Source: Thermoanaerobaculia bacterium (lineage in GTDB: Bacteria > Acidobacteriota > Thermoanaerobaculia > UBA5066 > Gp7-AA6). From it: a stretch of DNA of 64,000 nt. The notes under the pieces were generated by a model, which ran no database searches, had not been told where the DNA came from, and saw nothing but the letters and a program-made list of their open reading frames with translations. The stretch spans positions 21,434 through 85,433 of the forward strand of contig JBBSEW010000007.1 in the NCBI GenBank assembly GCA_038239305.1, read 5' to 3'. Positions 12,027 through 52,738 of the stretch are shown in pieces (position 1 is the stretch's first letter; each line of letters opens with the position of its first letter). The position numbers and the translations under genes were made by a program.

Positions 12027-14678
12027 ATGCGCATACCCGCCCGCCTCCGAGCGCTCGCCCGCAATCTCGTCCGCCGGCCGGGGGTCGAGTCGGATCTCGA
12101 CGACGAGCTCCGGTCGTTTCTCGAAATGCGGATCGCGGAAAACATCGCGGCGGGAGCCACCCCCGAGGACGCCCGACGATCCGCGCAGCGGGAAATGGGC
12201 GGGCTCGAGCAGCTGAAGGAGTCGGTGCGCGAGGTCCGCACGGGAGCGGCGCTCGATACTCTCGCGCGCGATCTCACCTCGGGCGTGCGCCTCCTCGTCC
12301 GTAATCCCGGATTCACCGCGGCGGCCGTGATCGCGCTGGCGCTCGGGATCGGCGCGAGCGCCGCCATCTTCACCGTCGTCAACGCGGTGCTGCTGCGCCC
12401 GCTCTCCTACGGTCATCCGGACGGTCTCGCCGTGCTGCTCCACCGCGGGCGCAACCCGGTGAGCCCCGCGAACTACATCGACTGGAGACGCGCCAACGAC
12501 GTGTTCGAGAGAATGGGGGCGGCCGAGTCCTGGGCGCCCAATCTCGCCGACCGGGGCAGCGCCGAGAGCGTGACCGCCGTGCGCGTCGATACGCGCCTGC
12601 TCGACTTCCTCGAAGTGCCTCCCCTCATGGGCCGGCTCTTTCTCGAGGGCGAAGACGCGGAGGGGCGCGATCACGAGGTCGTGCTCGGCTATCGGATCTG
12701 GCAGCGCCGATTCGGCGGAGACCGGCGCGTTCTCGGCCAGGCCATCCGGCTGAACGGTCAGCCCTACACCGTCGTCGGCGTGATGCCCCGCTCGTTCACG
12801 TTCCCTCCATTCTGGGAGGAGGGCGCGGAGCTATGGGCGCCTCTACCGCTCGAATCCCGCAAGGACAGCCGGACGGGGAACAGCCTCCGCATATTTGCTC
12901 GCCTGAAGCCCGGCGTCTCGCTGGCGAGAGCCTCATCGCAAATGGCGGCGATCACGGCGCGGCTCGAACGCGAGTATCCCGGCACCAACCGGGAGGTCAC
13001 CGTCCGCTCGCTGCAGGACACCGTCGTCCGCGGGGTACGGCCCGCTCTGCTCGTCCTGCTCGGCGCCGTCGGGTTCGTGCTCGTCATCGCCTGCGCGAAT
13101 GTCGCTCACATGCTCCTCGCGCGCGCCTCGGCGCGGCAGAAAGAGATCGCCATCCGCACCGCCCTCGGTGCGAGCCGCGGACGCGTGATCCGCCAGCTCT
13201 TGACCGAGAGCATCGTACTGTCTTCCCTGGGAGGCGCTGGAGGGCTGCTTCTCGCTTTCGCCGGCGTCCGGGCGCTCGTGGCCCTCTCTCCGGAAATACC
13301 GAGGCTCGAGTCAATATCGGTCGACGGCCCGGTGCTCCTCTTCACGCTCGCCGTGTCGATGGCCACGGGGATCGCTTTCGGGCTCGTTCCCGCGCTGCAG
13401 GTTTCGCGGCGGGAGCTCACCGAAGCTCTGCGAGAGGGAGAGCGAGGCTCGACCGAGAGCGGCGGCCGCAGCCGCCTTCGGAATCTCCTCGTCGGATCCG
13501 AGCTGTCCCTGGCGCTCATCCTGACAATCGGCGCGGGGCTGATGATCCGCACGTTCATCGCCCTGTCGGCGATCGACCCGGGGCTCGATCCGCGCAACGT
13601 GCTGACGATGCAGGTGTCCGTGGCCGGAACGTCGCAGACCGCCCCGGGCCGCCGTGCCGGCTTCTATCCGGCGGTGCTCGAAAAGGTGAGCGCGATACCC
13701 GGAGTTGTGAGCGCCTCGGCGATCAATCACCTGCCGCTCGGCGGCGACATCTGGGGCTTTCCGTTTCAGATCGAAGGACGGCCGCAGCCGAAGGCGGGCG
13801 AGAGCCAGGGAGCCACGTTCCGGGCAGCGTTTCCCGGCTACTTCCGCACGATGAGAATCTCTCTCCTCCGCGGCCGGGAGTTCACAGCCGCCGACCGGAC
13901 CGGGGCGCCCGAGGTGGTGATCATCAATCGGCGCCTCGCCGAACAGTACTGGCCCGGCGAAGATGCGATCGGGAAGCGACTGACGGTGGACGGTGCGGGA
14001 GACGAGCCCCTCTGGCGAACCGTTGTCGGAATCGCCCAGAACGCGGTTCGCGCGGACTGGACGGCGGACGCGGAGGAAGAAGTGTACGTCCCGTTCCTCC
14101 AGAGCCCGCTGTATATGGAAGGCCCGATCTGGCCGGTGCAATACGCGACCCTGGTCGTCCGAACCCACGGCGATCCCTCCCGCCTGGCGGGTCCGATCCG
14201 GGCCGCCGTCGCCTCGCTCGATCGCAACGTCGCGGTGTCGTCCGTTTCCACGATGGAGAACGTCGTCTCGCGCTCGAACTCCCGGCCCCGCTTCTATCTG
14301 CTGCTTCTCGGCTCGTTCGCCGCCGTCGCTCTCGCTCTCGCGGCGCTCGGAATCTACGGCGTCATGAGCTACTCGGTTTCGCGCCGGTCGCACGAGATCG
14401 GCATCCGCATGGCGCTCGGAGCCGAGCGCGGGGATCTCGTGCGGCTCGTCGTCGGCGAAGGAATGCGAGTCGCCGCCGCCGGCGCGGCCGTGGGCCTGGC
14501 GGGCGCATTCGCGCTCACCCGGCTGATGGCGGGCCTTCTCTACGGAGTCCGCGCTACCGACCCCGTGACATTCACCCTCGTTGCCGTACTTCTCTCGATC
14601 GTGGCGCTCGCCGCGAGCTGGATTCCCGCCCGCCGGGCGACACGGGTAGACCCGCTGACAGCGCTGCGCCACGACTGA
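12027..14678 (+). CDS. ADOP-family duplicated FtsX/MacB-type permease
   Basis: 883-aa ORF with the characteristic N-terminus (LRALARNLVRRPGVESDLDDELRSFLEMRIAENIAAG...PEDARRSAQREMGG). It carries two MacB-periplasmic-domain plus FtsX modules, and no ATPase gene is adjacent. Confidence 0.92.
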   Translation: MRIPARLRALARNLVRRPGVESDLDDELRSFLEMRIAENIAAGATPEDARRSAQREMGGLEQLKESVREVRTGAALDTLARDLTSGVRLLVRNPGFTAAAVIALALGIGASAAIFTVVNAVLLRPLSYGHPDGLAVLLHRGRNPVSPANYIDWRRANDVFERMGAAESWAPNLADRGSAESVTAVRVDTRLLDFLEVPPLMGRLFLEGEDAEGRDHEVVLGYRIWQRRFGGDRRVLGQAIRLNGQPYTVVGVMPRSFTFPPFWEEGAELWAPLPLESRKDSRTGNSLRIFARLKPGVSLARASSQMAAITARLEREYPGTNREVTVRSLQDTVVRGVRPALLVLLGAVGFVLVIACANVAHMLLARASARQKEIAIRTALGASRGRVIRQLLTESIVLSSLGGAGGLLLAFAGVRALVALSPEIPRLESISVDGPVLLFTLAVSMATGIAFGLVPALQVSRRELTEALREGERGSTESGGRSRLRNLLVGSELSLALILTIGAGLMIRTFIALSAIDPGLDPRNVLTMQVSVAGTSQTAPGRRAGFYPAVLEKVSAIPGVVSASAINHLPLGGDIWGFPFQIEGRPQPKAGESQGATFRAAFPGYFRTMRISLLRGREFTAADRTGAPEVVIINRRLAEQYWPGEDAIGKRLTVDGAGDEPLWRTVVGIAQNAVRADWTADAEEEVYVPFLQSPLYMEGPIWPVQYATLVVRTHGDPSRLAGPIRAAVASLDRNVAVSSVSTMENVVSRSNSRPRFYLLLLGSFAAVALALAALGIYGVMSYSVSRRSHEIGIRMALGAERGDLVRLVVGEGMRVAAAGAAVGLAGAFALTRLMAGLLYGVRATDPVTFTLVAVLLSIVALAASWIPARRATRVDPLTALRHD

Positions 14679-14704
14679 GGGCGGGGGGTGAGGGATCGGA
14701 AGAC

Positions 14705-14871
14705 GGGAAACGGGAAACGGGAAACGGGAAACGAGGGAGACATCGCTCTTACCGATCCTCGATCACCCGATTCCCCGGATTGATCACCCGATCACCCGAT
14801 CACCCGATTTCAGCTGATAGTTCGATCGATCGCGAGATCATGAGATCGCGAGATCGCGAGATCGCGAGATC
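14705..14871. repeat. Modular short-tandem-repeat locus L1: (GGGAAAC)x4, (GATCACCC)x~5, GTTCGATCGATC, (GCGAGATC)x5
   Basis: Read directly. GGGAAAC x4 at 14705-14732. GATCACCC-type units at 14761-14805, with three perfect copies at 14782-14805. GTTCGATC-GATC at 14820-14831. GCGAGATC x5 at 14832-14871, with one ATGAGATC variant. The locus lies between the convergent ADOP and aminotransferase genes. Confidence 0.96.
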
Positions 14872-14895
14872 GGTCCTCGCACCACCACTCCGGCT

Positions 14896-16086
14896 TTAGT
14901 CCCCCGCCCACTCCCCCAGTCTTCTCATCCCTTCCTCCACCCGCTCGATCGGTGTGGCGAATGAGAGCCGGATGCAGTCGTCCTCGCCGAAAGCGTCGCC
15001 CGGAACCGCGGCAACGCGCGCCTCGTCGAGGAGCCGCCGGCAGAACTCGGAAGAGCCCCGGATGTTCTTGCGAGCGCATATCGACCGGACGTCGGGAAAC
15101 GTGTAGAAGGCGCCCTCCGGGGCAACGACCTCGACGCCGGGAATCGCCCTCAGTCCGGCGAGCATGACGTCGCGTCGGCGCGCGTACTCCGCGAGCATAC
15201 CGGCGACGGACTTCTCGGAGCGCCCGAGGTCCGCGAGCGCACCAATGCCCGCCTCCTGCGAGATCGACGTCGCGTTCGACGTCGAATGGCTCTGGAACGA
15301 CGACATCGCCGCGACGAGATCCGCCGGCGCCAGAGCCCATCCCAGGCGCCAGCCGGTCATCGCGTAGGTCTTCGAGAGGGCTCCCGTGACGACCATGCGG
15401 TCGGGAAATCGAGCCCAGTACGAGGCGGCCGACACGTGCCTCCGGTCCCCGTAGAGAAAGCGATCGTACGTCTCGTCGAACACGAGCACGGCGTCATGCG
15501 AGGAGCACCAGTCGAGGATTCCCTCGATATCGCGATCTTCCACGACGGCGCCGGTGGGATTGTTCGGGGAGTTCAGGATGACGCCCCGCACTCGCGGGCC
15601 GGCTTCCCGCTCGAGCAGGGCGGCCGTGGGCTTCCAGCCATCCTGCCTCCGGGTCTGGAGGAAAACGGGATCCGCTCCCGAAAGACGGACCATTTCGGGA
15701 AACGACACCCAGAATGGCGAGAAGATCGCGACCTCGTCGCCGCTTTCGAACATGGCCTGGCAGGTGTTGAACACCGCCTGCTTCGCGCCGGCCGTCACGA
15801 GGACGTTCGCGGGGCCGCATGGGGTGCCATGCTCCCGGCGGTACTGTTCGGCAATCGCCACGCGCAGCTCGGGAACTCCGGCGGTGTCCGTGTATTTCGT
15901 GAACCCCTTCTCGATGGCGGAGATGCCGGCGCGAGAGACGAAGTCGGGCGTCGGGAAGTCCGGCTCCCCGATTCCGAAGTCGACCACGTCGACCCCGGCT
16001 GCCGCCAGCGCCTTGGCCGCCTTCCCGACGGCGGCGGTCGACGACGGCTGGATTTCCGTGACGCGCCGCGAAAGCCGCAGTGTCAC
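14896..16086 (-). CDS. class I/II PLP-dependent aminotransferase (aspartate aminotransferase-like)
   Basis: GTG at 16086 overlaps the stop of the upstream gene (GTGA). Motifs: NSPNNPTG, SKTYAMTGWRLGW (PLP lysine), IRLSFA. Confidence 0.9.
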   Translation of the reverse strand: MTLRLSRRVTEIQPSSTAAVGKAAKALAAAGVDVVDFGIGEPDFPTPDFVSRAGISAIEKGFTKYTDTAGVPELRVAIAEQYRREHGTPCGPANVLVTAGAKQAVFNTCQAMFESGDEVAIFSPFWVSFPEMVRLSGADPVFLQTRRQDGWKPTAALLEREAGPRVRGVILNSPNNPTGAVVEDRDIEGILDWCSSHDAVLVFDETYDRFLYGDRRHVSAASYWARFPDRMVVTGALSKTYAMTGWRLGWALAPADLVAAMSSFQSHSTSNATSISQEAGIGALADLGRSEKSVAGMLAEYARRRDVMLAGLRAIPGVEVVAPEGAFYTFPDVRSICARKNIRGSSEFCRRLLDEARVAAVPGDAFGEDDCIRLSFATPIERVEEGMRRLGEWAGD

Positions 16087-20648: not shown

Positions 20649-20861
20649 ATCGGGTGATCGGGTAATCGGGTGATTGGGTGATCAATCTGCGGATCGGGTG
20701 ATCGGAGGAGCGGGGATGCGAGTCGGAATCTCGCGATCAATCGAACTATCGAGCATCGGAAATCTTGACGCCGCGGCGAAATCGTCGCGTTGAAGGGTAG
20801 CTGGGTGGGGGTCCCTCTCCGCTTTCCCGTTTCCGTTTCCCGTTTCCATTTCCCGTTTCCT
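20649..20861. repeat. Modular short-tandem-repeat locus L2: (ATCGGGTG)x~6, single AATCTCGC and ATCGAAC units, (GTTTCCC)x~6
   Basis: ATCGGGTG-type octamers at 20649-20705. AATCTCGC-GATCAATCGAAC-TATCGAGC at 20727-20754. GTTTCCC-type units (reverse complement of GGGAAAC) at 20822-20861. Confidence 0.95.
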
Positions 20862-36561: not shown

Positions 36562-36698
36562 GTTCTCAGTTCTCAGTTCTCAGTTCTCAGCTCTCAGTTC
36601 TGATCCTTACGCCTCGCACTTTTCACCCAACCCGAGGAACGACGAGCGAAGCGGAAAACCGATAACCGAAAACTGACAACCGATGACTCACAACTGAC
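36562..36698. repeat. Short-tandem-repeat locus L6: (GTTCTCA)x6 and (GANAACY)x6-7 in the tolQ-tolR spacer
   Basis: GTTCTCA heptamers at 36562-36603. GAAAACC GATAACC GAAAACT GACAACC GATGACT CACAACT GAC(ATG) at 36654-36698, running into the tolR start codon. Confidence 0.95.
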
Positions 36699-37136
36699 AT
36701 GGCCTTTCAACGACAGAGCGGCGGCGATCCCTTCGACCACCTGGCGGATATCAACGTCACGCCGCTGGTCGACGTCATGCTCGTGCTGCTCATCATCTTC
36801 ATGGTCACGGCGCCGATGCTCCACCAGGGAGTTGCGGTCGCTCTTCCGAAGACGGCGACCACGAACCTGCCGTCGAGCGTGGAGGACCCGATCATTCTCT
36901 CCATCACCCGCGACGGCCTGTACTACATCAACGAGTCGCCTGTGGCGCGAGGATTGCTCAAGGAACGACTCGGAGCATTCCTGAAGACGAGAAAAGACCG
37001 CACTGTGTTTCTCAAGGCCGACAAGGCGCTGTCTTACGGGACCGTCGTCGAGACGCTCGACGTCTTGAACCGCATGGGAATCGAGAACCTCGGCATGATC
37101 ACCGAGACCCCCGGAAACCGGAAGAGCTCTCGCTGA
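36699..37136 (+). CDS. tolR: Tol-Pal system protein TolR (ExbD family)
   Basis: 145-aa ORF with INVTPLVDVMLVLLIIFMV and an ExbD periplasmic domain. Confidence 0.9.
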   Translation: MAFQRQSGGDPFDHLADINVTPLVDVMLVLLIIFMVTAPMLHQGVAVALPKTATTNLPSSVEDPIILSITRDGLYYINESPVARGLLKERLGAFLKTRKDRTVFLKADKALSYGTVVETLDVLNRMGIENLGMITETPGNRKSSR

Positions 37137-40900: not shown

Positions 40901-41013
40901 GAACAACCGCAATCGGAACAGGGGCCGTTGAAAGGCTCCGGCGAAACAGCGCCGCGTCCCGTATTCGCCGTCCGTTTGCGGTATCAGTAAAACAGCCGTT
41001 ATCAGCAAACAGA

Positions 41014-41069
41014 GTTCAGCAGTTCAGAAGTTCAGAAGTTGAGAAGAGCAGCAGAGAAGAGGAGAGAGG
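41014..41069. repeat. Short-tandem-repeat locus L7: (GTTCAGAA)x4 decaying into purine-only octamers, in the rpsT leader
   Basis: GTTCAGCA GTTCAGAA GTTCAGAA GTTGAGAA GAGCAGCA GAGAAGAG GAGAGAGG. The array ends 4 nt before the rpsT ATG. An imperfect TATCAG-N-AAACAG direct repeat precedes it at about 40982-41012. Confidence 0.92.
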
Positions 41070-42039: not shown

Positions 42040-44529
42040 TCATCGCACCACGATGTTCAGAAGGCGGTCCTGTACGTATACGGCGCGGGCGATCGGCTTG
42101 TCGCCGACCCATGCCCGTACCTTCTCGTCCGCGTGCGCGAGAGCCAGCACGTCGGCTTCCGAAGCGCCCCGCTCGATGTCCAGTTTTCCCCGAACCTTGC
42201 CGTTGACCTGAACGACGAGCGTTACCCGCTCACTGGTGGCGAGCACAGGATCGAAATCCGGCCAGGCGACGTCGATCAGGAAAAATCGATTACCGAATCG
42301 CTCCCACCACTCGTCGGTCAAGTGGGGGGCGACCGGATGCAGGAGCTTCAGAAGGGTCTCGGTAGCGCGCCGCAGGGATCCCGGCGTCTCCGAACCGGCG
42401 GCGGCGGCTTCGGAGATCGCCCGCTGGAGCTCCATCAGGGCGGCGACCGCCGTGTGAAAGTGGAATCGCGCCGCATCCGCCGTCACGCGCTCGATCGTCC
42501 GGTGCTCGAGCCGGCGCAGAGGCGAGTCCGCGGGCGCCTCGGACGGCTCGGGCGCGCCGGCCGCGACGCGATCACAAAGGTCGTGAACCCGCTGCAGGAA
42601 GCGCCAGGCGCCCATGACGCCGTCCTCCGACCACTCGGATTCCTTCTCCGGAGGCCCGATGAACAGCGTGTAGACACGCACCGTGTCGGCTCCGAAGCGC
42701 TCGATCAGGTCGTCGGGAGAGATCGTGTTTCCGCGGGACTTGGACATCTTCTCGACCTTGCCGGTCGCCGGATTCAGCTTCGTGATCATCCCCTGGTTGA
42801 AGAGGCGCGCGAAGGGCTCCTCGATGTCCACGAGACCGAGATCCTTCAGGACTCGGCAGATGAATCGCGCGTAGAGCAGGTGCAGGATCGCGTGCTCGAT
42901 CCCGCCCACGTACTGGTCCACGGGCATCCATTTCGCGGCTCGCTCCGGATCCACCATTTTCGTCCCGTCCGCGGGATTCAGGAAGCGCAGGTAATACCAA
43001 GACGAGTCCACGAACGTGTCCATCGTGTCGGTCTCGCGCCGCGCCGGACCGCCGCAACCGGGGCATTCCGTCGCCACGAACGCCTCCGACTGCTCGAGCG
43101 GGTTGCCCTCGGCGCCCTGGAAGGCGACGTCTTCGGGCAGGACCACCGGAAGCTGCGAGTCGGGAACCGGGACGACGCCGCACGCCGGACAATGGATCGC
43201 CGGGATCGGCGTGCCCCAGTATCGCTGCCGCGAGATGAGCCAGTCGCGCAGGCGATATCCGACCCGGCCTTTCCCGAAGCCCTTCTCCTCGATCCACTCG
43301 ATTGCGCGGCGGATCGCCGCCGGTCCGTTCGGCGTTCCGTCCCAGTCTCCCGAATGGGCGAGCACCCCGCCGTGCGGTGCGGCCTCCGTCATCGCCTCCG
43401 GGTCGATGTCCCGATCCGCATCCGGCCCGTCGGTCATCCGATAGACCGGACGGATCTCGATTCCGTACTTCCGCGCGAACTCGAAGTCGCGCTGGTCGTG
43501 CGCTGGTACGCCCATGATCGCGCCGGTGCCGTAATCCGGCAGGACGAAGTTGGCGAGCCAGACGGGGATCGTCTCGCCGGTGACCGGATTCAAGGCCGTG
43601 CCCCCGGTGGCGACGCCTTCTTTTTCGCCGCCCTCGGACTCGCGCTCGAGGCGCGACTCCCGCCGCACACGCTCGATGAACGCCCCGATCTCGGCGCGAT
43701 TCGGCGAGCGCTCCGCGAGCGTTGCCGCCGCCGGATGCTCCGGTGCAAGCGCCAGAAATGTCGCGCCGAAGAGCGTGTCCGGACGGGTCGTGAAAACCGC
43801 GATCGGCTCGGTGAGCCCGTCGACCGGAAAGAAGACCTCCGCGCCTTCCGACCGTCCGATCCAGTTTCGCTGCATGGTCTTCACGCGGTCGGACCAGTCG
43901 AGCCCCTCGAGACCGGCGAGGAGCCGCTCGGCGTAATCCGTGATGCGGAAGAACCACTGCGTGAGGTCGCGGATCTGGACGAGATCGCCCGAGCGCTCGC
44001 AGCGCCCGTCGACGACCTGCTCGTTCGCCAGCACGGTCCGGCAGCCCGGACACCAGTTCACGGGAGCCGTCTTCCGATACGCGAGGCCGCGCTCCCACAT
44101 GCGCAGGAAGAGCCACTGGTTCCACCGGTAGTACGCCGGATCGCACGACGCGAGCTCCTTCGACCAGTCGTACAGGAGACCGAGGCTCTTCAGCTGCTCC
44201 TTCATCCGGCCGATGTTGCCGAGCGTGTACTCGCGGGGATGAACCCCGCTCGCGATCGCCGCATTCTCGGCCGGCAGGCCGAACGCGTCCCAGCCCATCG
44301 GGTTCAGTGTCCGCCGGCCGGCCATCCGTTCCCGCCGGAAGAGCGCGTCCCCCAGAATGTAGTTGCGGCCGTGCCCGACATGGAGACGGCTTCCCGAGGG
44401 ATACGGGAACATGTTGAGCATGTAGAACTTGTCTCGCCCGTCGGCGGTATCCACTTTCGCGGCACCCGCGTCTTCCCAGCGGCGTTGCCACTTCCGATCG
44501 AGCGCGACGGGATCGTATTTCTCGGCCAT
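42040..44529 (-). CDS. leuS: leucine--tRNA ligase
   Basis: ATG at 44529 (MAEKYDPVALDRKWQRRWEDAG...). Motifs: PYPSGSRLHVGH (HIGH) and KMSKSRGN (KMSKS). 829 aa. Confidence 0.97.
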   Translation of the reverse strand: MAEKYDPVALDRKWQRRWEDAGAAKVDTADGRDKFYMLNMFPYPSGSRLHVGHGRNYILGDALFRRERMAGRRTLNPMGWDAFGLPAENAAIASGVHPREYTLGNIGRMKEQLKSLGLLYDWSKELASCDPAYYRWNQWLFLRMWERGLAYRKTAPVNWCPGCRTVLANEQVVDGRCERSGDLVQIRDLTQWFFRITDYAERLLAGLEGLDWSDRVKTMQRNWIGRSEGAEVFFPVDGLTEPIAVFTTRPDTLFGATFLALAPEHPAAATLAERSPNRAEIGAFIERVRRESRLERESEGGEKEGVATGGTALNPVTGETIPVWLANFVLPDYGTGAIMGVPAHDQRDFEFARKYGIEIRPVYRMTDGPDADRDIDPEAMTEAAPHGGVLAHSGDWDGTPNGPAAIRRAIEWIEEKGFGKGRVGYRLRDWLISRQRYWGTPIPAIHCPACGVVPVPDSQLPVVLPEDVAFQGAEGNPLEQSEAFVATECPGCGGPARRETDTMDTFVDSSWYYLRFLNPADGTKMVDPERAAKWMPVDQYVGGIEHAILHLLYARFICRVLKDLGLVDIEEPFARLFNQGMITKLNPATGKVEKMSKSRGNTISPDDLIERFGADTVRVYTLFIGPPEKESEWSEDGVMGAWRFLQRVHDLCDRVAAGAPEPSEAPADSPLRRLEHRTIERVTADAARFHFHTAVAALMELQRAISEAAAAGSETPGSLRRATETLLKLLHPVAPHLTDEWWERFGNRFFLIDVAWPDFDPVLATSERVTLVVQVNGKVRGKLDIERGASEADVLALAHADEKVRAWVGDKPIARAVYVQDRLLNIVVR

Positions 44530-44596
44530 GAGAGTCCCGCAATATACCCGATGGATCCCCGAGGGCAGGACGGACAGCGGGGGCGCATGACGCTGC

Positions 44597-44722
44597 GATC
44601 TCGCGATCTCGCGATCCCATGATCTCGCGATCACTCGACCATCGAACCATCGAACCATCGAACTCGTGGGGATCGGAGAGCACTCCGGTTTGGTCCGAAT
44701 CGGGCGACCGGGCGATCGGGCC
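44597..44722. repeat. Modular short-tandem-repeat locus L8: (GATCTCGC)x5, (ACCATCGA)x3, (ATCGGGCG/ACCGGGCG)x3
   Basis: GATCTCGC-type octamers at 44597-44636. ACCATCGA at 44638-44661. ATCGGGCG ACCGGGCG ATCGGGCC at 44699-44722. The locus is upstream of leuS. Confidence 0.95.
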
Positions 44723-44762
44723 TTCGGACGATAGATCCTGCGGAATCGGAACGAGGCTTCTT

Positions 44763-44877
44763 CCCCTCTCCCCCGGACTCGGGGAAGAGGGGACGGTGAG
44801 GGGGCCATTCTTGCATCCGGGGTTTGGAGAGAAGCGAGAATCTCCCCTCAGCCCGGCCCTCGCCCGCCGGGCGAGGG
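44763..44877. other. two GC-rich hairpins (REP-like)
   Basis: Hairpin 1 is at 44763-44792: CCCCTCTCCCC cggactc GGGGAAGAGGGG, with one bulge. Hairpin 2 is at 44857-44877: CCCTCGCCCG c CGGGCGAGGG. Neither is followed by a U-tract on either strand. Confidence 0.7.
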
Positions 44878-52652: not shown

Positions 52653-52738
52653 ATCGAGTGGTCCGACAGAAGATCGGGTGATCGGGTGATCGGATGATCG
52701 GGTGATCAATCAGGTGAATCGGGCAATCAGACGATCGG
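52653..52738. repeat. Short-tandem-repeat locus L9: (ATCGGGTG)x~9 octamer array in the bamA-skp spacer
   Basis: ATCGAGTG GTCCGACA gaag ATCGGGTG ATCGGGTG ATCGGATG ATCGGGTG ATCAATCAGGTG AATCGGGC AATCAGACG ATCGG. Confidence 0.93.

What the first reader, a model, noticed from the sequence alone, without database searches (positions are those of the whole stretch)
14761..14871. Repeat loci are composite elements with a conserved module adjacency (GCGAGATC array next to GTTCGATS unit), seen in both orientations
On the plus strand, L1 reads (GATCACCC)n, then GTTCGATC-GATC (14820-14831), then (GCGAGATC)5. The reverse complement of L8 (44597-44722) reads (GATCGCCC/GGTCGCCC)3, a spacer, (GTTCGATG)3, then (GCGAGATC)5. 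That is the same A-B-C order with each module expanded to a different copy number. L2 keeps single copies of C and B side by side (AATCTCGC-GATCAATCGAAC, 20727-20746), but places the A array on the other side and adds the GTTTCCC array. This is not how independent microsatellites behave. It looks like a mosaic element whose modules expand and contract separately, similar in logic to BIME-type mosaics but built from direct repeats.
Basis: seen in the sequence. Interest (0 to 1): 0.65.

Follow-up and report, generated by a model that had tools for sequence, protein, structure and literature searches.

The report
Modular octamer-repeat element between genes
The short repeat arrays between genes in this uncultured soil acidobacterium are not separate microsatellites but pieces of one composite, high-copy element with a fixed part order, a new lineage-specific relative of the BOX, BIME and REP repeats of other bacteria, with function still unknown.

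Summary
The genome is 3.8 Mb, from a Thermoanaerobaculia (Acidobacteriota) MAG.

- **C is a dispersed element, not a free array.** Its core, GATCGCGAGATC-ATGA-GATCGCGAGATCGCGAGAT, occurs 187 times, always outside called genes. 98 copies match the 27-nt anchor exactly, and about 72% carry the ATGA variant unit.
- **B is the fixed leader of C.** An exact GTTCGAT lies within 15 nt upstream on the same strand in 115 of 187 cores, against 4 inverted and 1 downstream (p about 1e-69).
- **Order is polar.**
  - A lies upstream on the same strand of C 53 times, against 18, 6 and 0 for the other arrangements.
  - A GC-rich hairpin (P) or the GGAAACG array (G) precedes A in 60 of 70 and 21 of 24 cases.
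  - Forty-nine copies give a roughly 190-nt consensus, P-A-B-C.
- **Unit numbers vary but peak at 4** for A, C and G alike.
- **Arrays are punctuated:** GATT-(GATCNNNN)n-GATTC.
- **Placement:** elements favour gene 3' ends.
- **Distribution:** each module has its own patchy distribution, confined to one family.
- **Orthologous spacers** in relatives about 82% identical show one empty site and unit-number changes.
- **Not found:** no RAYT transposase, no Dam methylase, no Rfam match, no replication-strand polarity.

My best reading is a new BOX/REP-like mosaic repeat family, spread by an unknown route and resized by slippage.

The parts
14685..14695 (+). Degenerate remnant of the P module (GGGGTGAGGGA), just after the stop codon of the upstream permease gene (12027-14678).
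   Evidence: Motif scan. P lies upstream of A on the same strand in 60 of 70 cases genome-wide.
14698..14733 (+). G module: (GGAAACG)x5, a heptamer array.
   Evidence: G lies upstream of A on the same strand in 21 of 24 cases. The modal unit number is 4.
14752..14781 (+). A leader: CCGATCCTCGATCACCCGATTCCCCGGATT, degenerate CGAT-bearing 8-mers that end in GATT.
   Evidence: Matches the 49-copy consensus CCGATcCtCCGATCACCCGATTCCCctGATT.
14782..14809 (+). A module: (GATCACCC)x3, closed by GATT.
   Evidence: The genome holds 193 non-coding A arrays. GATT punctuation is shown.
14810..14827 (+). Short-form A-to-C junction, TCAGCTGATA plus the B unit GTTCGATC (14820-14827), which is the leader of C.
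   Evidence: The 19-20-nt junction recurs at 20 loci. An exact GTTCGAT lies within 15 nt 5' of 115 of 187 cores.
14828..14871 (+). C module: GATCGCGAGATC-ATGA-GATCGCGAGATC plus two more GCGAGATC units, giving 5 units in all. It is a quasi-palindromic hairpin core and ends 24 nt from the stop codon of the convergent gene (14896-16086, minus strand).
   Evidence: The genome holds 187 copies, and ATGA is the second-unit variant in 134 of 206 arm matches.
20649..20712 (-). L2: A module, (GATCACCC)-type units x4, with its leader, read on the minus strand.
20727..20759 (-). L2: minimal B-C element on the minus strand, CCGATGCTCGATAGTTCGATT-GATCGCGA-GATT. It has the full leader but only one C unit. 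The order here is C then A, the minority arrangement seen 18 times genome-wide.
   Evidence: (junction with 0 mismatches).
20818..20860 (-). L2: G module on the minus strand, (CGTTTCC)-type units, about 5.7 copies.
44595..44632 (-). L8: C module on the minus strand, with the core carrying ATGG in place of ATGA. It lies about 65 nt upstream of the start of gene 42040-44529 (minus strand).
44633..44680 (-). L8: B leader on the minus strand, (GTTCGATG)x3 at 44638-44663, preceded by CCGATCCCCAC.
   Evidence: In-phase B-like units range from 0 to 6 with a mode of 2.
44697..44722 (-). L8: A-type module variant on the minus strand, GATCGCCC/GGTCGCCC closed by GATTCGGAC. The A-to-C junction is the long form.
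52672..52707 (-). Solitary A module on the minus strand, (GATCACCC)-type units, 4.5 copies.

Best explanation
**Shown.** The arrays belong to a lineage-specific family of composite interspersed repeats, built from a few discrete sub-elements.

- Each sub-element has the same plan: a leader of CGAT-bearing 8-mers, then GATT, then (GATCNNNN)n, usually about 4 units, then GATTC.
- The C sub-element is the B leader plus GATCGCGAGATC-ATGA-GATCGCGAGATCGCGAGAT.
  - Two 12-nt arms around ATGA could form a hairpin.
  - It is present about 187 times.
- The A sub-element is a leader plus (GATCACCC)3-4.
- A GC-rich hairpin (P) or a (CGGGAAA)4 array (G) lies 5' of A.
- The sub-elements stack head to tail in the polar order P/G-A-B-C and sit mostly at gene 3' ends.

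**Inferred.** Whole sub-elements, and the fused short-form A-B-C, are copied to new spacers by a still unidentified trans-acting route, as REP, BOX and MITE repeats are. Slipped-strand mispairing then adds or removes 7-8-nt units. Selection keeps copies out of genes and promoter regions. Copies are probably co-transcribed in 3' untranslated regions, where the hairpins may affect termination or mRNA stability.
For: **Copy number and sequence conservation**
- The core occurs 187 times, with 98 exact matches to the 27-nt anchor. None lies in a called gene.
- An invariant ATGA unit and conserved leaders rule out origin in place.

**Polar order**
- The arrangement counts give p values from 1e-7 to 1e-71.
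- Forty-nine copies yield a composite consensus.
- A near-identical 19-20-nt A-B junction recurs at 20 separate loci.

**Shared grammar**
- Arrays are bounded by GATT on both sides.
- Unit numbers peak at 4 for A, C and G.

**Placement**
- 42% of copies lie between convergent genes, where 17% is expected.
- 10% lie between divergent genes, where 28% is expected.

**Distribution**
- The core occurs 184 times in this genome at up to 2 mismatches.
- It occurs 4-5 times in 2 of 14 congeners and not at all in 26 more distant relatives.
- A, G and P each have a different patchy distribution within the family.
- The exact 35-mer occurs in only two other Thermoanaerobaculia species representatives.
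- B-C elements and inverted doublets occur in other soil metagenome contigs.

**Orthologous loci at about 82% identity**
- One is empty (a 25-nt spacer) where the relative has a roughly 125-nt B-C element.
- Others keep the element with different unit numbers.

**Folding and transcription**
- The consensus folds at -21.2 kcal/mol, z = -2.8.
- Module-bearing contigs occur in two sediment RNA-Seq runs.
Against: - **No mobilising enzyme was found.** There is no Y1/RAYT transposase (PF01797) in the genome, which is 81% complete. Genes bracketed by C copies are ordinary housekeeping genes.
- **No mobile-element termini could be defined.** I found no terminal inverted repeats or target-site duplications.
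- **No covariation supports a stem.** The outer GTTCGA/TCGAAC stem shows none. The core arms vary too little to test.
- **The core is better conserved than its 3' flank.** It is also identical in species with only about 72% protein identity. That fits selection on a functional site at least as well as recent spread.
- **A 4-unit mode in three unrelated unit families** points to a length constraint that slippage alone does not explain.
- **The RNA evidence is weak.** It comes from contigs of other organisms, and DNA carry-over cannot be excluded.
Confidence: 0.6

Rival explanations
1. The modules are selected cis-acting sites, kept at gene ends for a function rather than spread selfishly. One form of this: they are arrays of about four 7-8-nt binding units for an oligomeric DNA- or RNA-binding protein. 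Another: they are termination or insulation modules. In that case the C-rich A tract (or the C-rich strand of G, read from the opposite gene) acts as a Rho-loading site, and the C or P hairpins act as pause or 3'-end-protecting structures.
For: - The 35-nt core is identical across species with about 72% protein identity, including an orthologous position 6 nt upstream of glgA in two congeners.
- Unit number peaks at 4 in three different unit families.
- Copies are enriched at convergent gene ends. A shows a sense bias in tandem spacers, 68 against 34.
- L1 has no canonical intrinsic terminator.
- In sense orientation the A tract is roughly 45% C and 13% G, read from the consensus.
- Modules appear in RNA-Seq contigs.
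Against: - The orientation bias is modest, and one third of A copies in tandem spacers are antisense.
- The core count jumps from 0-5 to 184 between congeners, which is unlike a conserved regulatory site.
- Orthologous spacers in relatives carry quite different units.
- No partner protein has been identified.
- No stem covariation was found.
Confidence: 0.3
2. The arrays are independent microsatellites (long simple sequence repeats) that arose in place by polymerase slippage. On this view the apparent adjacency is chance or a side effect of base composition.
For: - Periods of 7-8 nt are the classic slippage-prone class.
- Some 983 non-coding arrays with many different units exist in the genome.
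- G arrays have no conserved flanks.
Against: - Leaders, the ATGA variant unit and the junctions are conserved at dozens to hundreds of unlinked loci.
- Order and orientation are strongly non-random.
- The unit-number distributions are not geometric.
Confidence: 0.04
3. The composite arrangement is an artefact of metagenome assembly or binning, produced by collapsed or chimeric joins across short repeats.
For: - Many copies lie within about 300 nt of contig ends.
- The source run's contigs break inside the arrays.
Against: - Most copies lie inside contigs between unique genes.
- The same B-C and A-B-C arrangements occur in independent assemblies. These include other MAGs, JGI soil contigs, a sediment run and RNA-Seq contigs.
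Confidence: 0.02

Closest known systems
BOX elements of Streptococcus pneumoniae (boxA-(boxB)n-boxC; Martin et al. 1992; Croucher et al. 2011, PMC3049150)
   Same: - A composite intergenic repeat with fixed polar module order.
- An internal module present in a variable number of tandem copies.
- Partial forms are common.
- Around a hundred or more copies per genome.
- Predicted stem-loops when transcribed.
- Module number varies between orthologous loci.
   Different: - BOX modules are 45-59 nt, against 7-8-nt units here.
- BOX has terminal inverted repeats and target-site duplications and is treated as a MITE. Neither feature was found here.
- There is no sequence similarity, and the phylum is different.
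- Here several modules are themselves arrays, and all peak at 4 units.
BIMEs / REP (PU) elements and REPINs of Enterobacteria and Pseudomonas
   Same: - High-copy elements placed outside genes, favouring gene 3' ends and convergent spacers.
- A mosaic of a palindromic unit plus named flanking motifs.
- The C core is a quasi-palindrome of about 35 nt.
- Sixteen head-to-head C doublets about 70-130 nt apart resemble REPINs.
   Different: - BIMEs alternate the orientation of REPs. Here modules are mainly head to tail on one strand.
- No RAYT (Y1 transposase) is detectable.
- The modules are built from direct octamer repeats.
STRR heptamer repeats of heterocystous cyanobacteria, and long simple sequence repeats of 5-11-nt units (Mrazek, Guo and Shah 2007, as summarised in PMC4679880); also TAACTGA repeats of Beggiatoaceae (PMC4679880)
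   Same: - Tandem 7-8-nt units filling intergenic spacers.
- A few units dominate the genome.
- Distribution among relatives is patchy.
- Function is unknown.
- The G module and the minor heptamer arrays fit this class well.
   Different: As far as I know and from the papers read, those repeats are described as arrays. They are not described as elements with conserved unique leaders, a fixed internal variant unit, GATT punctuation and a fixed order between different arrays.

Membership tests
BIME / REP-RAYT system | An imperfect palindromic unit of about 35-40 nt, repeated hundreds of times outside genes. | tested here: met
   The 35-nt core has 12-nt arms around ATGA. It occurs 187 times, with none in a called gene. 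The consensus folds at -21.2 kcal/mol, z = -2.8.
BIME / REP-RAYT system | Units in alternating orientation within a cluster, or inverted doublets (REPINs) as the main form. | tested here: not met
   Only 32 of 187 cores lie in head-to-head doublets. Modules are otherwise co-oriented.
BIME / REP-RAYT system | A cognate RAYT (Y1 transposase, PF01797) gene in the genome, flanked by the repeats. | tested here: not met
   No PF01797 match in the window's own genome, which is 81% complete. Genes flanked by C copies are housekeeping genes.
BOX-type modular MITE | Fixed module order with a variable-number internal tandem module. | tested here: met
   The order is P/G-A-B-C. In-phase B-like units number 0-6, A units 2-10 and C units 3-6.
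BOX-type modular MITE | Terminal inverted repeats and target-site duplications. | tested here: inconclusive
   No terminal inverted repeats appear at the composite ends. The weak GTTCGA...TCGAAC flank shows no covariation. The one filled-versus-empty comparison (L026 against C5) could not be aligned well enough to define ends.
STRR / long simple sequence repeats | Head-to-tail arrays of 5-11-nt units, longer than chance, mostly non-coding. | tested here: met
   There are 983 non-coding arrays of period 5-8. Rows of period 7 and 8 are non-coding in 435 of 586 and 641 of 818 cases.
STRR / long simple sequence repeats | Arrays arise and vary in place by slippage, with no conserved unique flanks required. 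| tested here: not met
   A and C have conserved leaders, punctuation and an internal variant unit. G does fit this feature.
Dam/GATC-methylation-linked sites (SeqA- or MutH-type GATC clusters) | A Dam-family (D12 class) methyltransferase in the genome. | tested here: not met
   No PF02086 match in this genome, and matches in only 3 of 40 relatives, unrelated to module presence. Other methyltransferase families were not tested.
Replication-polar motifs (KOPS- or Chi-like) | Motif orientation follows the replication strand or GC skew. | tested here: not met
   No module's orientation is associated with local GC-skew sign (Fisher p 0.26-0.86).
Known RNA families (Rfam 15) | A match at or above the family's gathering score. 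| tested here: not met
   No match in the window at gathering scores. The only match on L1 at an E-value up to 1 is a chance miRNA hit, 16.5 bits against a 90-bit gathering score.

The most novel reading that the evidence does not exclude
Three features stand out together: a shared 4-unit (about 30-nt) length optimum in three unrelated unit families, strict GATT-(GATCNNNN)n-GATT punctuation, and a 35-nt hairpin core kept identical across deeply diverged species. These could mean that the modules are read by a dedicated, still unknown trans-acting machine in this acidobacterial family. That machine could be a new kind of element-copying enzyme, or an oligomeric DNA- or RNA-binding factor that uses the stacked modules as bidirectional termination or insulation units at gene ends.
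Probability: 0.2. Interest if true: 0.75.

Novelty: new variant of a known kind. Interest (0 to 1): 0.5.

Why it matters
**Scale.** Short arrays occupy about 8% of spacer DNA and occur in 35% of spacers of 60 nt or more in this genome. They break its assembly and would confuse annotation of untranslated regions, small RNAs and terminators across an abundant but uncultured soil lineage.

**A tractable system.** The arrays resolve into a few discrete, ordered sub-elements with a common grammar. That turns an unexplained kind of bacterial repeat (7-8-nt long simple sequence repeats) into something that can be studied with defined consensus baits, defined junctions and a presence/absence pattern among relatives. 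Those can be used to look for the partner protein or the copying mechanism.

**Practical use.** The elements also offer strain-typing markers for Thermoanaerobaculia in metagenomes.

Tried and rejected
**Gene calling**
- My first two home-made gene callers were poor. One covered only 64.5% of the genome and the other chose antisense ORFs.
- I replaced them with a model seeded on third-position GC content. Gene-context numbers rest on those approximate calls.

**Mobilising enzymes and methylation**
- No RAYT/Y1 transposase was found.
- No Dam-type methylase was found.
- Genes bracketed by C copies are not transposases. They include 2-amino-3-ketobutyrate ligase, superoxide dismutase and enoyl-CoA hydratase, identified by eye from the sequences.

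**Known families and signals**
- Rfam gave nothing.
- The scan found no sigma-70 promoter or intrinsic terminator in L1.
- There is no replication-strand polarity.

**Structure tests**
- No covariation supports the outer stem (observed 3.38 against 3.33 in shuffles).
- The core arms have too few substitutions and no compensatory pairs.
- The idea that the whole composite is one continuous 8-nt-phased array fails. The GAT phase shifts at the A-B and B-C joints, read from the consensus.

**Searches and comparisons that led nowhere**
- IMG/VR has no copy of the core.
- The 43-nt B+C string has no exact match in JGI metagenomes.
- Congeners in GTDB are too distant, at about 72% protein identity, to align spacers.
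- Population-level unit variation could not be read from the source run, because only repeat-broken contigs are kept.

Full report
**1. Observation**

The three loci read exactly as the finding describes.

- **L1, plus strand:** (GGAAACG)x5 at 14698-14733. A 30-nt stretch of CGAT-bearing 8-mers ending in GATT at 14752-14781. (GATCACCC)x3 plus GATT at 14782-14809. A 10-nt joint, then GTTCGATC at 14820-14827. Finally GATC followed by GCGAGATC, ATGAGATC and GCGAGATC x3 at 14828-14871.
- **L8, minus strand:** the same A-type, B and C parts in the same order.
- **L2, minus strand:** one B unit and one C unit side by side, with the A array on the other side.

Tandem Repeats Finder lists all the arrays. 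The B-C joint GTTCGATNGATCGCGAGAT is present with 0, 0 and 2 mismatches at the three loci. Allowing up to 3 mismatches there are 6 matches in the window, against 0.33 expected from shuffles.

L1 lies between two convergent genes, 12027-14678 on the plus strand and 14896-16086 on the minus strand. L8 lies between two minus-strand genes, with its C end about 65 nt from a start codon.

**2. Genome-wide picture**

The window is part of a 3.8-Mb assembly of 109 contigs at 67% G+C. Sequence matches place it among Thermoanaerobaculia (Acidobacteriota) MAGs.

- Arrays of period 7 and 8 are far commoner than neighbouring periods, and most lie in the 12% of the genome that is non-coding.
- After removing overlaps there are 983 non-coding arrays of period 5-8, in 634 loci.
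- 555 of 1572 spacers of 60 nt or more hold at least one array, and arrays make up 7.7% of spacer bases.
- Three units dominate: GCGAGATC (C), GATCACCC (A) and GGAAACG (G). GTTCGATN (B) forms a smaller class.

**3. The module-order test**

| Reference module | Neighbour and window | Upstream, same strand | Upstream, inverted | Downstream, same strand | Downstream, inverted | Chi-square p |
|---|---|---|---|---|---|---|
| C core (187) | exact GTTCGAT within 15 nt | 115 (median gap 1 nt) | 4 | 1 | 0 | about 1e-69 |
| C core | nearest A within 150 nt | 53 | 6 | 18 | 0 | 7e-19 |
| A array | nearest P hairpin within 80 nt | 60 | 4 | 4 | 2 | 1e-29 |
| A array | nearest G array within 80 nt | 21 | 3 | 0 | 0 | 5e-11 |

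- P is the motif ...CCCTCTCCCGGCGGGAGAGGG..GGGGTGAGGGG.
- C-C neighbours within 200 nt are head to head for 32 cores (16 doublets) and never tail to tail.
- The commonest multi-module strings are B C (45), P A B C (14), A B C (12) and P A (12).
- L1 itself is a P remnant followed by G, A, B and C.

**4. What the modules really are**

*C is a discrete element, not a free microsatellite.*

- The 27-nt anchor GATCGCGAGATCATGAGATCGCGAGAT occurs 187 times at up to 4 mismatches, with 98 exact matches. No copy lies inside a called gene.
- The second unit is ATGA in 140 of 187 copies. Scored as 12-nt arms around a tetranucleotide, ATGA accounts for 134 of 206 matches.
- The core therefore reads as two arms, GATCGCGAGATC, around ATGA. 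That gives ten Watson-Crick pairs plus two G-A mismatches.
- The consensus with its flanks folds at -21.2 kcal/mol, z = -2.8.

*B is the leader of C.* Upstream of the core the consensus is cccGAT..tTCGATaGTTCGATt. It carries 0-6 in-phase nTTCGATn units, with a mode of 2.

*A has the same plan.* Its leader is CCGATcCtCCGATCACCCGATTCCCctGATT, followed by (GATCACCC)3-4 and then GATTCT.

*The grammar is general for GATC octamers.* About 210 arrays begin right after GATT and about 200 end with GATTC.

*Unit numbers vary but are not geometric.* All three families peak at 4.

| Family | Copies with 4 units | Copies with 3 units | Copies with 5 units |
|---|---|---|---|
| A | 57 | 48 | 12 |
| C | 116 | 28 | 26 |
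| G | 58 | 29 | 15 |

*G arrays have no conserved flanks*.

*The composite consensus.* Aligning 49 copies in which A lies within 60 nt 5' of C gives a roughly 190-nt consensus, P-A-B-C.

*The A-to-C joint comes in two discrete forms*.

- A 19-20-nt short form, TCTCCCTCGATAGTTCGATT, occurs about 20 times. L1 is one of these.
- A 50-58-nt long form occurs about 20 times, and L8 is one of these. In it A ends in GATTCTGAC, and a full B leader follows after a variable stretch.
- The near-identical short joint at unlinked loci suggests that the fused A-B-C is copied as a unit.
- The long form, and one case with a P hairpin between A and B, suggest that sub-elements can also arrive separately.

**5. 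Context**

Relative to the element's own orientation:

| Spacer type | Share of C cores | Expected from spacer length |
|---|---|---|
| Between convergent genes | 42% | 17% |
| Between divergent genes | 10% | 28% |

- The C end lies a median of 33-43 nt from the stop codon of a facing gene.
- In tandem spacers the sense orientation is preferred, clearly for A (68 against 34) and weakly for C, G and P.
- Orientation does not follow GC skew.
- L1 has no sigma-70-type promoter or intrinsic terminator by the simple scan, and no Rfam family matches.

**6. Relatives**

Counts are from 40 related genomes.

| Module | This genome | Congeners (14) | Other genera of the family | Rest of the order |
|---|---|---|---|---|
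| C core, up to 2 mismatches | 184 | 4-5 copies in 2 | none | none |
| A arrays | 193 | present in 4 | present in 4 | none |
| G arrays | 218 | present in 10 | present in 3 | none |
| P hairpins | 49 | present in 5 | present in 5 | none |

- The C copies in congeners lack B and A flanks.
- The modules are thus separate entities with independent, patchy histories. The A-B-C combination and its amplification are specific to this species group.
- The exact 35-mer is found in only two other species representatives out of 185,579, both Thermoanaerobaculia or Acidobacteriota MAGs. It is absent from IMG/VR.
- In two congeners the identical core sits at an orthologous site 6 nt upstream of the glgA start, although their proteins are only about 72% identical to those of this genome. 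That degree of conservation hints at constraint.
- The spacer orthologous to L1 in other congeners carries different heptamer arrays (CTGTCAG, CTCTCGA and related units), and in three of them these lie in the same order.
- Fifteen soil metagenome contigs carry the core, most with a B-like leader and three as inverted doublets.

Ten of those contigs align at about 81-85% identity to genes of this genome, so orthologous spacers can be compared.

- **L026 against C5:** the relative has a roughly 125-nt B-C element where this genome has a 25-nt spacer.
- **L033 against C17:** both keep the C element at the same place with different unit numbers. The relative has an extra inverted C with four B units, where this genome has only a B-plus-GAGATT stub.
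- **L027 against C69:** a doublet in the relative against a single copy here.
- **L030 against C71:** four or more C units in the relative against about 2.5 here.

Whole sub-elements come and go, and B and C unit numbers change independently.

**7. Transcription**

No RNA run of this organism exists. Two sediment RNA-Seq runs hold contigs from other organisms that carry G arrays (abundant), A arrays and B-C cores, including a doublet. This is weak evidence that such modules are transcribed, and DNA carry-over cannot be excluded. The source DNA run only shows that the modules are highly repeated and that they break contigs.

**8. Mechanism**

*Best reading (confidence 0.6).* This is a new, lineage-specific family of composite interspersed repeats.

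- Sub-elements, and the fused A-B-C, are copied to new spacers by an unknown trans-acting route.
- Slippage resizes the 7-8-nt arrays.
- Selection confines copies to gene ends.
- What is shown: the anatomy, the order, the distribution, and gain, loss and resizing at orthologous loci.
- What is inferred: mobility and any RNA-level role.

*Against a classical REP/RAYT or MITE mechanism.*

- No Y1 transposase is present.
- No transposase lies between paired copies.
- No terminal repeats or target duplications could be defined.
- No stem covariation was found.

*Main rival (0.3, not exclusive).* The modules are selected cis-sites, for example about four binding units for an oligomeric factor, or termination or insulation modules. 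In the latter case the C-rich A tract would act as a Rho-loading site and the C or P hairpins as structures. The 4-unit optimum and the cross-species identity of the core favour this. The 0-to-184 jump between congeners and the modest strand bias do not.

*Rejected.* Independent microsatellites (0.04) and assembly artefact (0.02) are effectively excluded for A, B and C.

**9. Comparison with known systems**

- **Closest in logic** is the pneumococcal BOX element, boxA-(boxB)n-boxC, a composite intergenic repeat whose internal module varies in tandem number (PMC3049150).
- **BIME/REP elements** share the palindromic unit, the preference for gene ends and the mosaicism. They fail on alternating orientation and on RAYT.
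- **STRR and long simple sequence repeats** (Mrazek et al. 2007, as summarised in PMC4679880) describe the raw arrays. They do not describe the conserved leaders, the internal variant unit, the punctuation or the order between arrays.

I therefore class the finding as a new variant of a known kind, a modular interspersed repeat built from octamer arrays, and not as a member of any of these families.

**10. Verdict**

Interest is moderate at 0.5. This is a clean, quantifiable new repeat architecture in an uncultured lineage with some odd regularities: the 4-unit optimum, the GATT punctuation and the deeply conserved core. It has no demonstrated function or mechanism.

Noticed in passing
window 44755-44800 and 44836-44870; genome-wide: A GC-rich hairpin element, CCCTCTCCCGGCGGGAGAGGG followed 2-4 nt later by GGGGTGAGGGG, is itself a dispersed repeat. 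The short GGGGTGAGGGG marker (up to 1 mismatch) has 212 non-coding hits, and there are 49 exact full copies. It occurs in 10 of 40 relatives, all within the same family. It usually sits 5' of the A module but also occurs alone or as inverted pairs.
   Followed up: partly
L001 1501-1535 (G013) and L005/L022 (G012): In two congeners the identical 35-nt C core, without B or A, lies at an orthologous site. It sits between a small Pro/Ala-rich secreted-protein gene and glgA, and in L001 it ends 6 nt before the TTG start of glgA. It may be an ancestral, single-copy functional context of the core.
   Followed up: partly
genome-wide: Three unrelated unit families (GATCACCC, GATCGCGA and CGGGAAA) all peak at exactly 4 tandem units, about 28-32 nt, instead of declining geometrically. 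The string (CGGGAAA)4CG recurs verbatim at many loci, often within 25 nt of a stop codon.
   Followed up: partly
L008, L009, L012, L013 (spacer orthologous to window 14679-14895 in congeners): Other species of the genus carry different heptamer arrays at the same spacer. In three of them a (CTGTCAG)n array is followed by (CTCTCGA/CTCTGAA)n in the same order with different copy numbers (L012 ends within the first array). Ordered array pairs are therefore not unique to this genome.
   Followed up: no
C18:5855-7400 and C18:45722-47230 of the genome (outside the window): Single housekeeping genes are tightly bracketed by C copies that point inwards, and some of the brackets are themselves inverted doublets. 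An mRNA spanning them would have complementary 35-nt ends.
   Followed up: partly
window 36562-36699 and 41013-41046: Further arrays with other units lie in short spacers of the window: GTTCTCA x5.7, AACCGAT-type x4 and AGTTCAGA x4.2. They do not belong to the A, B, C or G families and were not analysed further.
   Followed up: no
contig ends, for example C2:151, C16:145, C19:1, C48:129, C67:128: Many contigs of the assembly start or end inside these elements, so the elements are a main cause of assembly fragmentation. The copy numbers given here are therefore lower bounds.
   Followed up: no
runs X4 and X5, laid on window 14695-14738: G-type (GGAAACG) arrays reach summed contig depths of 666-1640 in two sediment RNA-Seq runs, far above the A or C modules at 3-26. 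Such arrays may be abundant in environmental transcripts, or simply common across many taxa.
   Followed up: no
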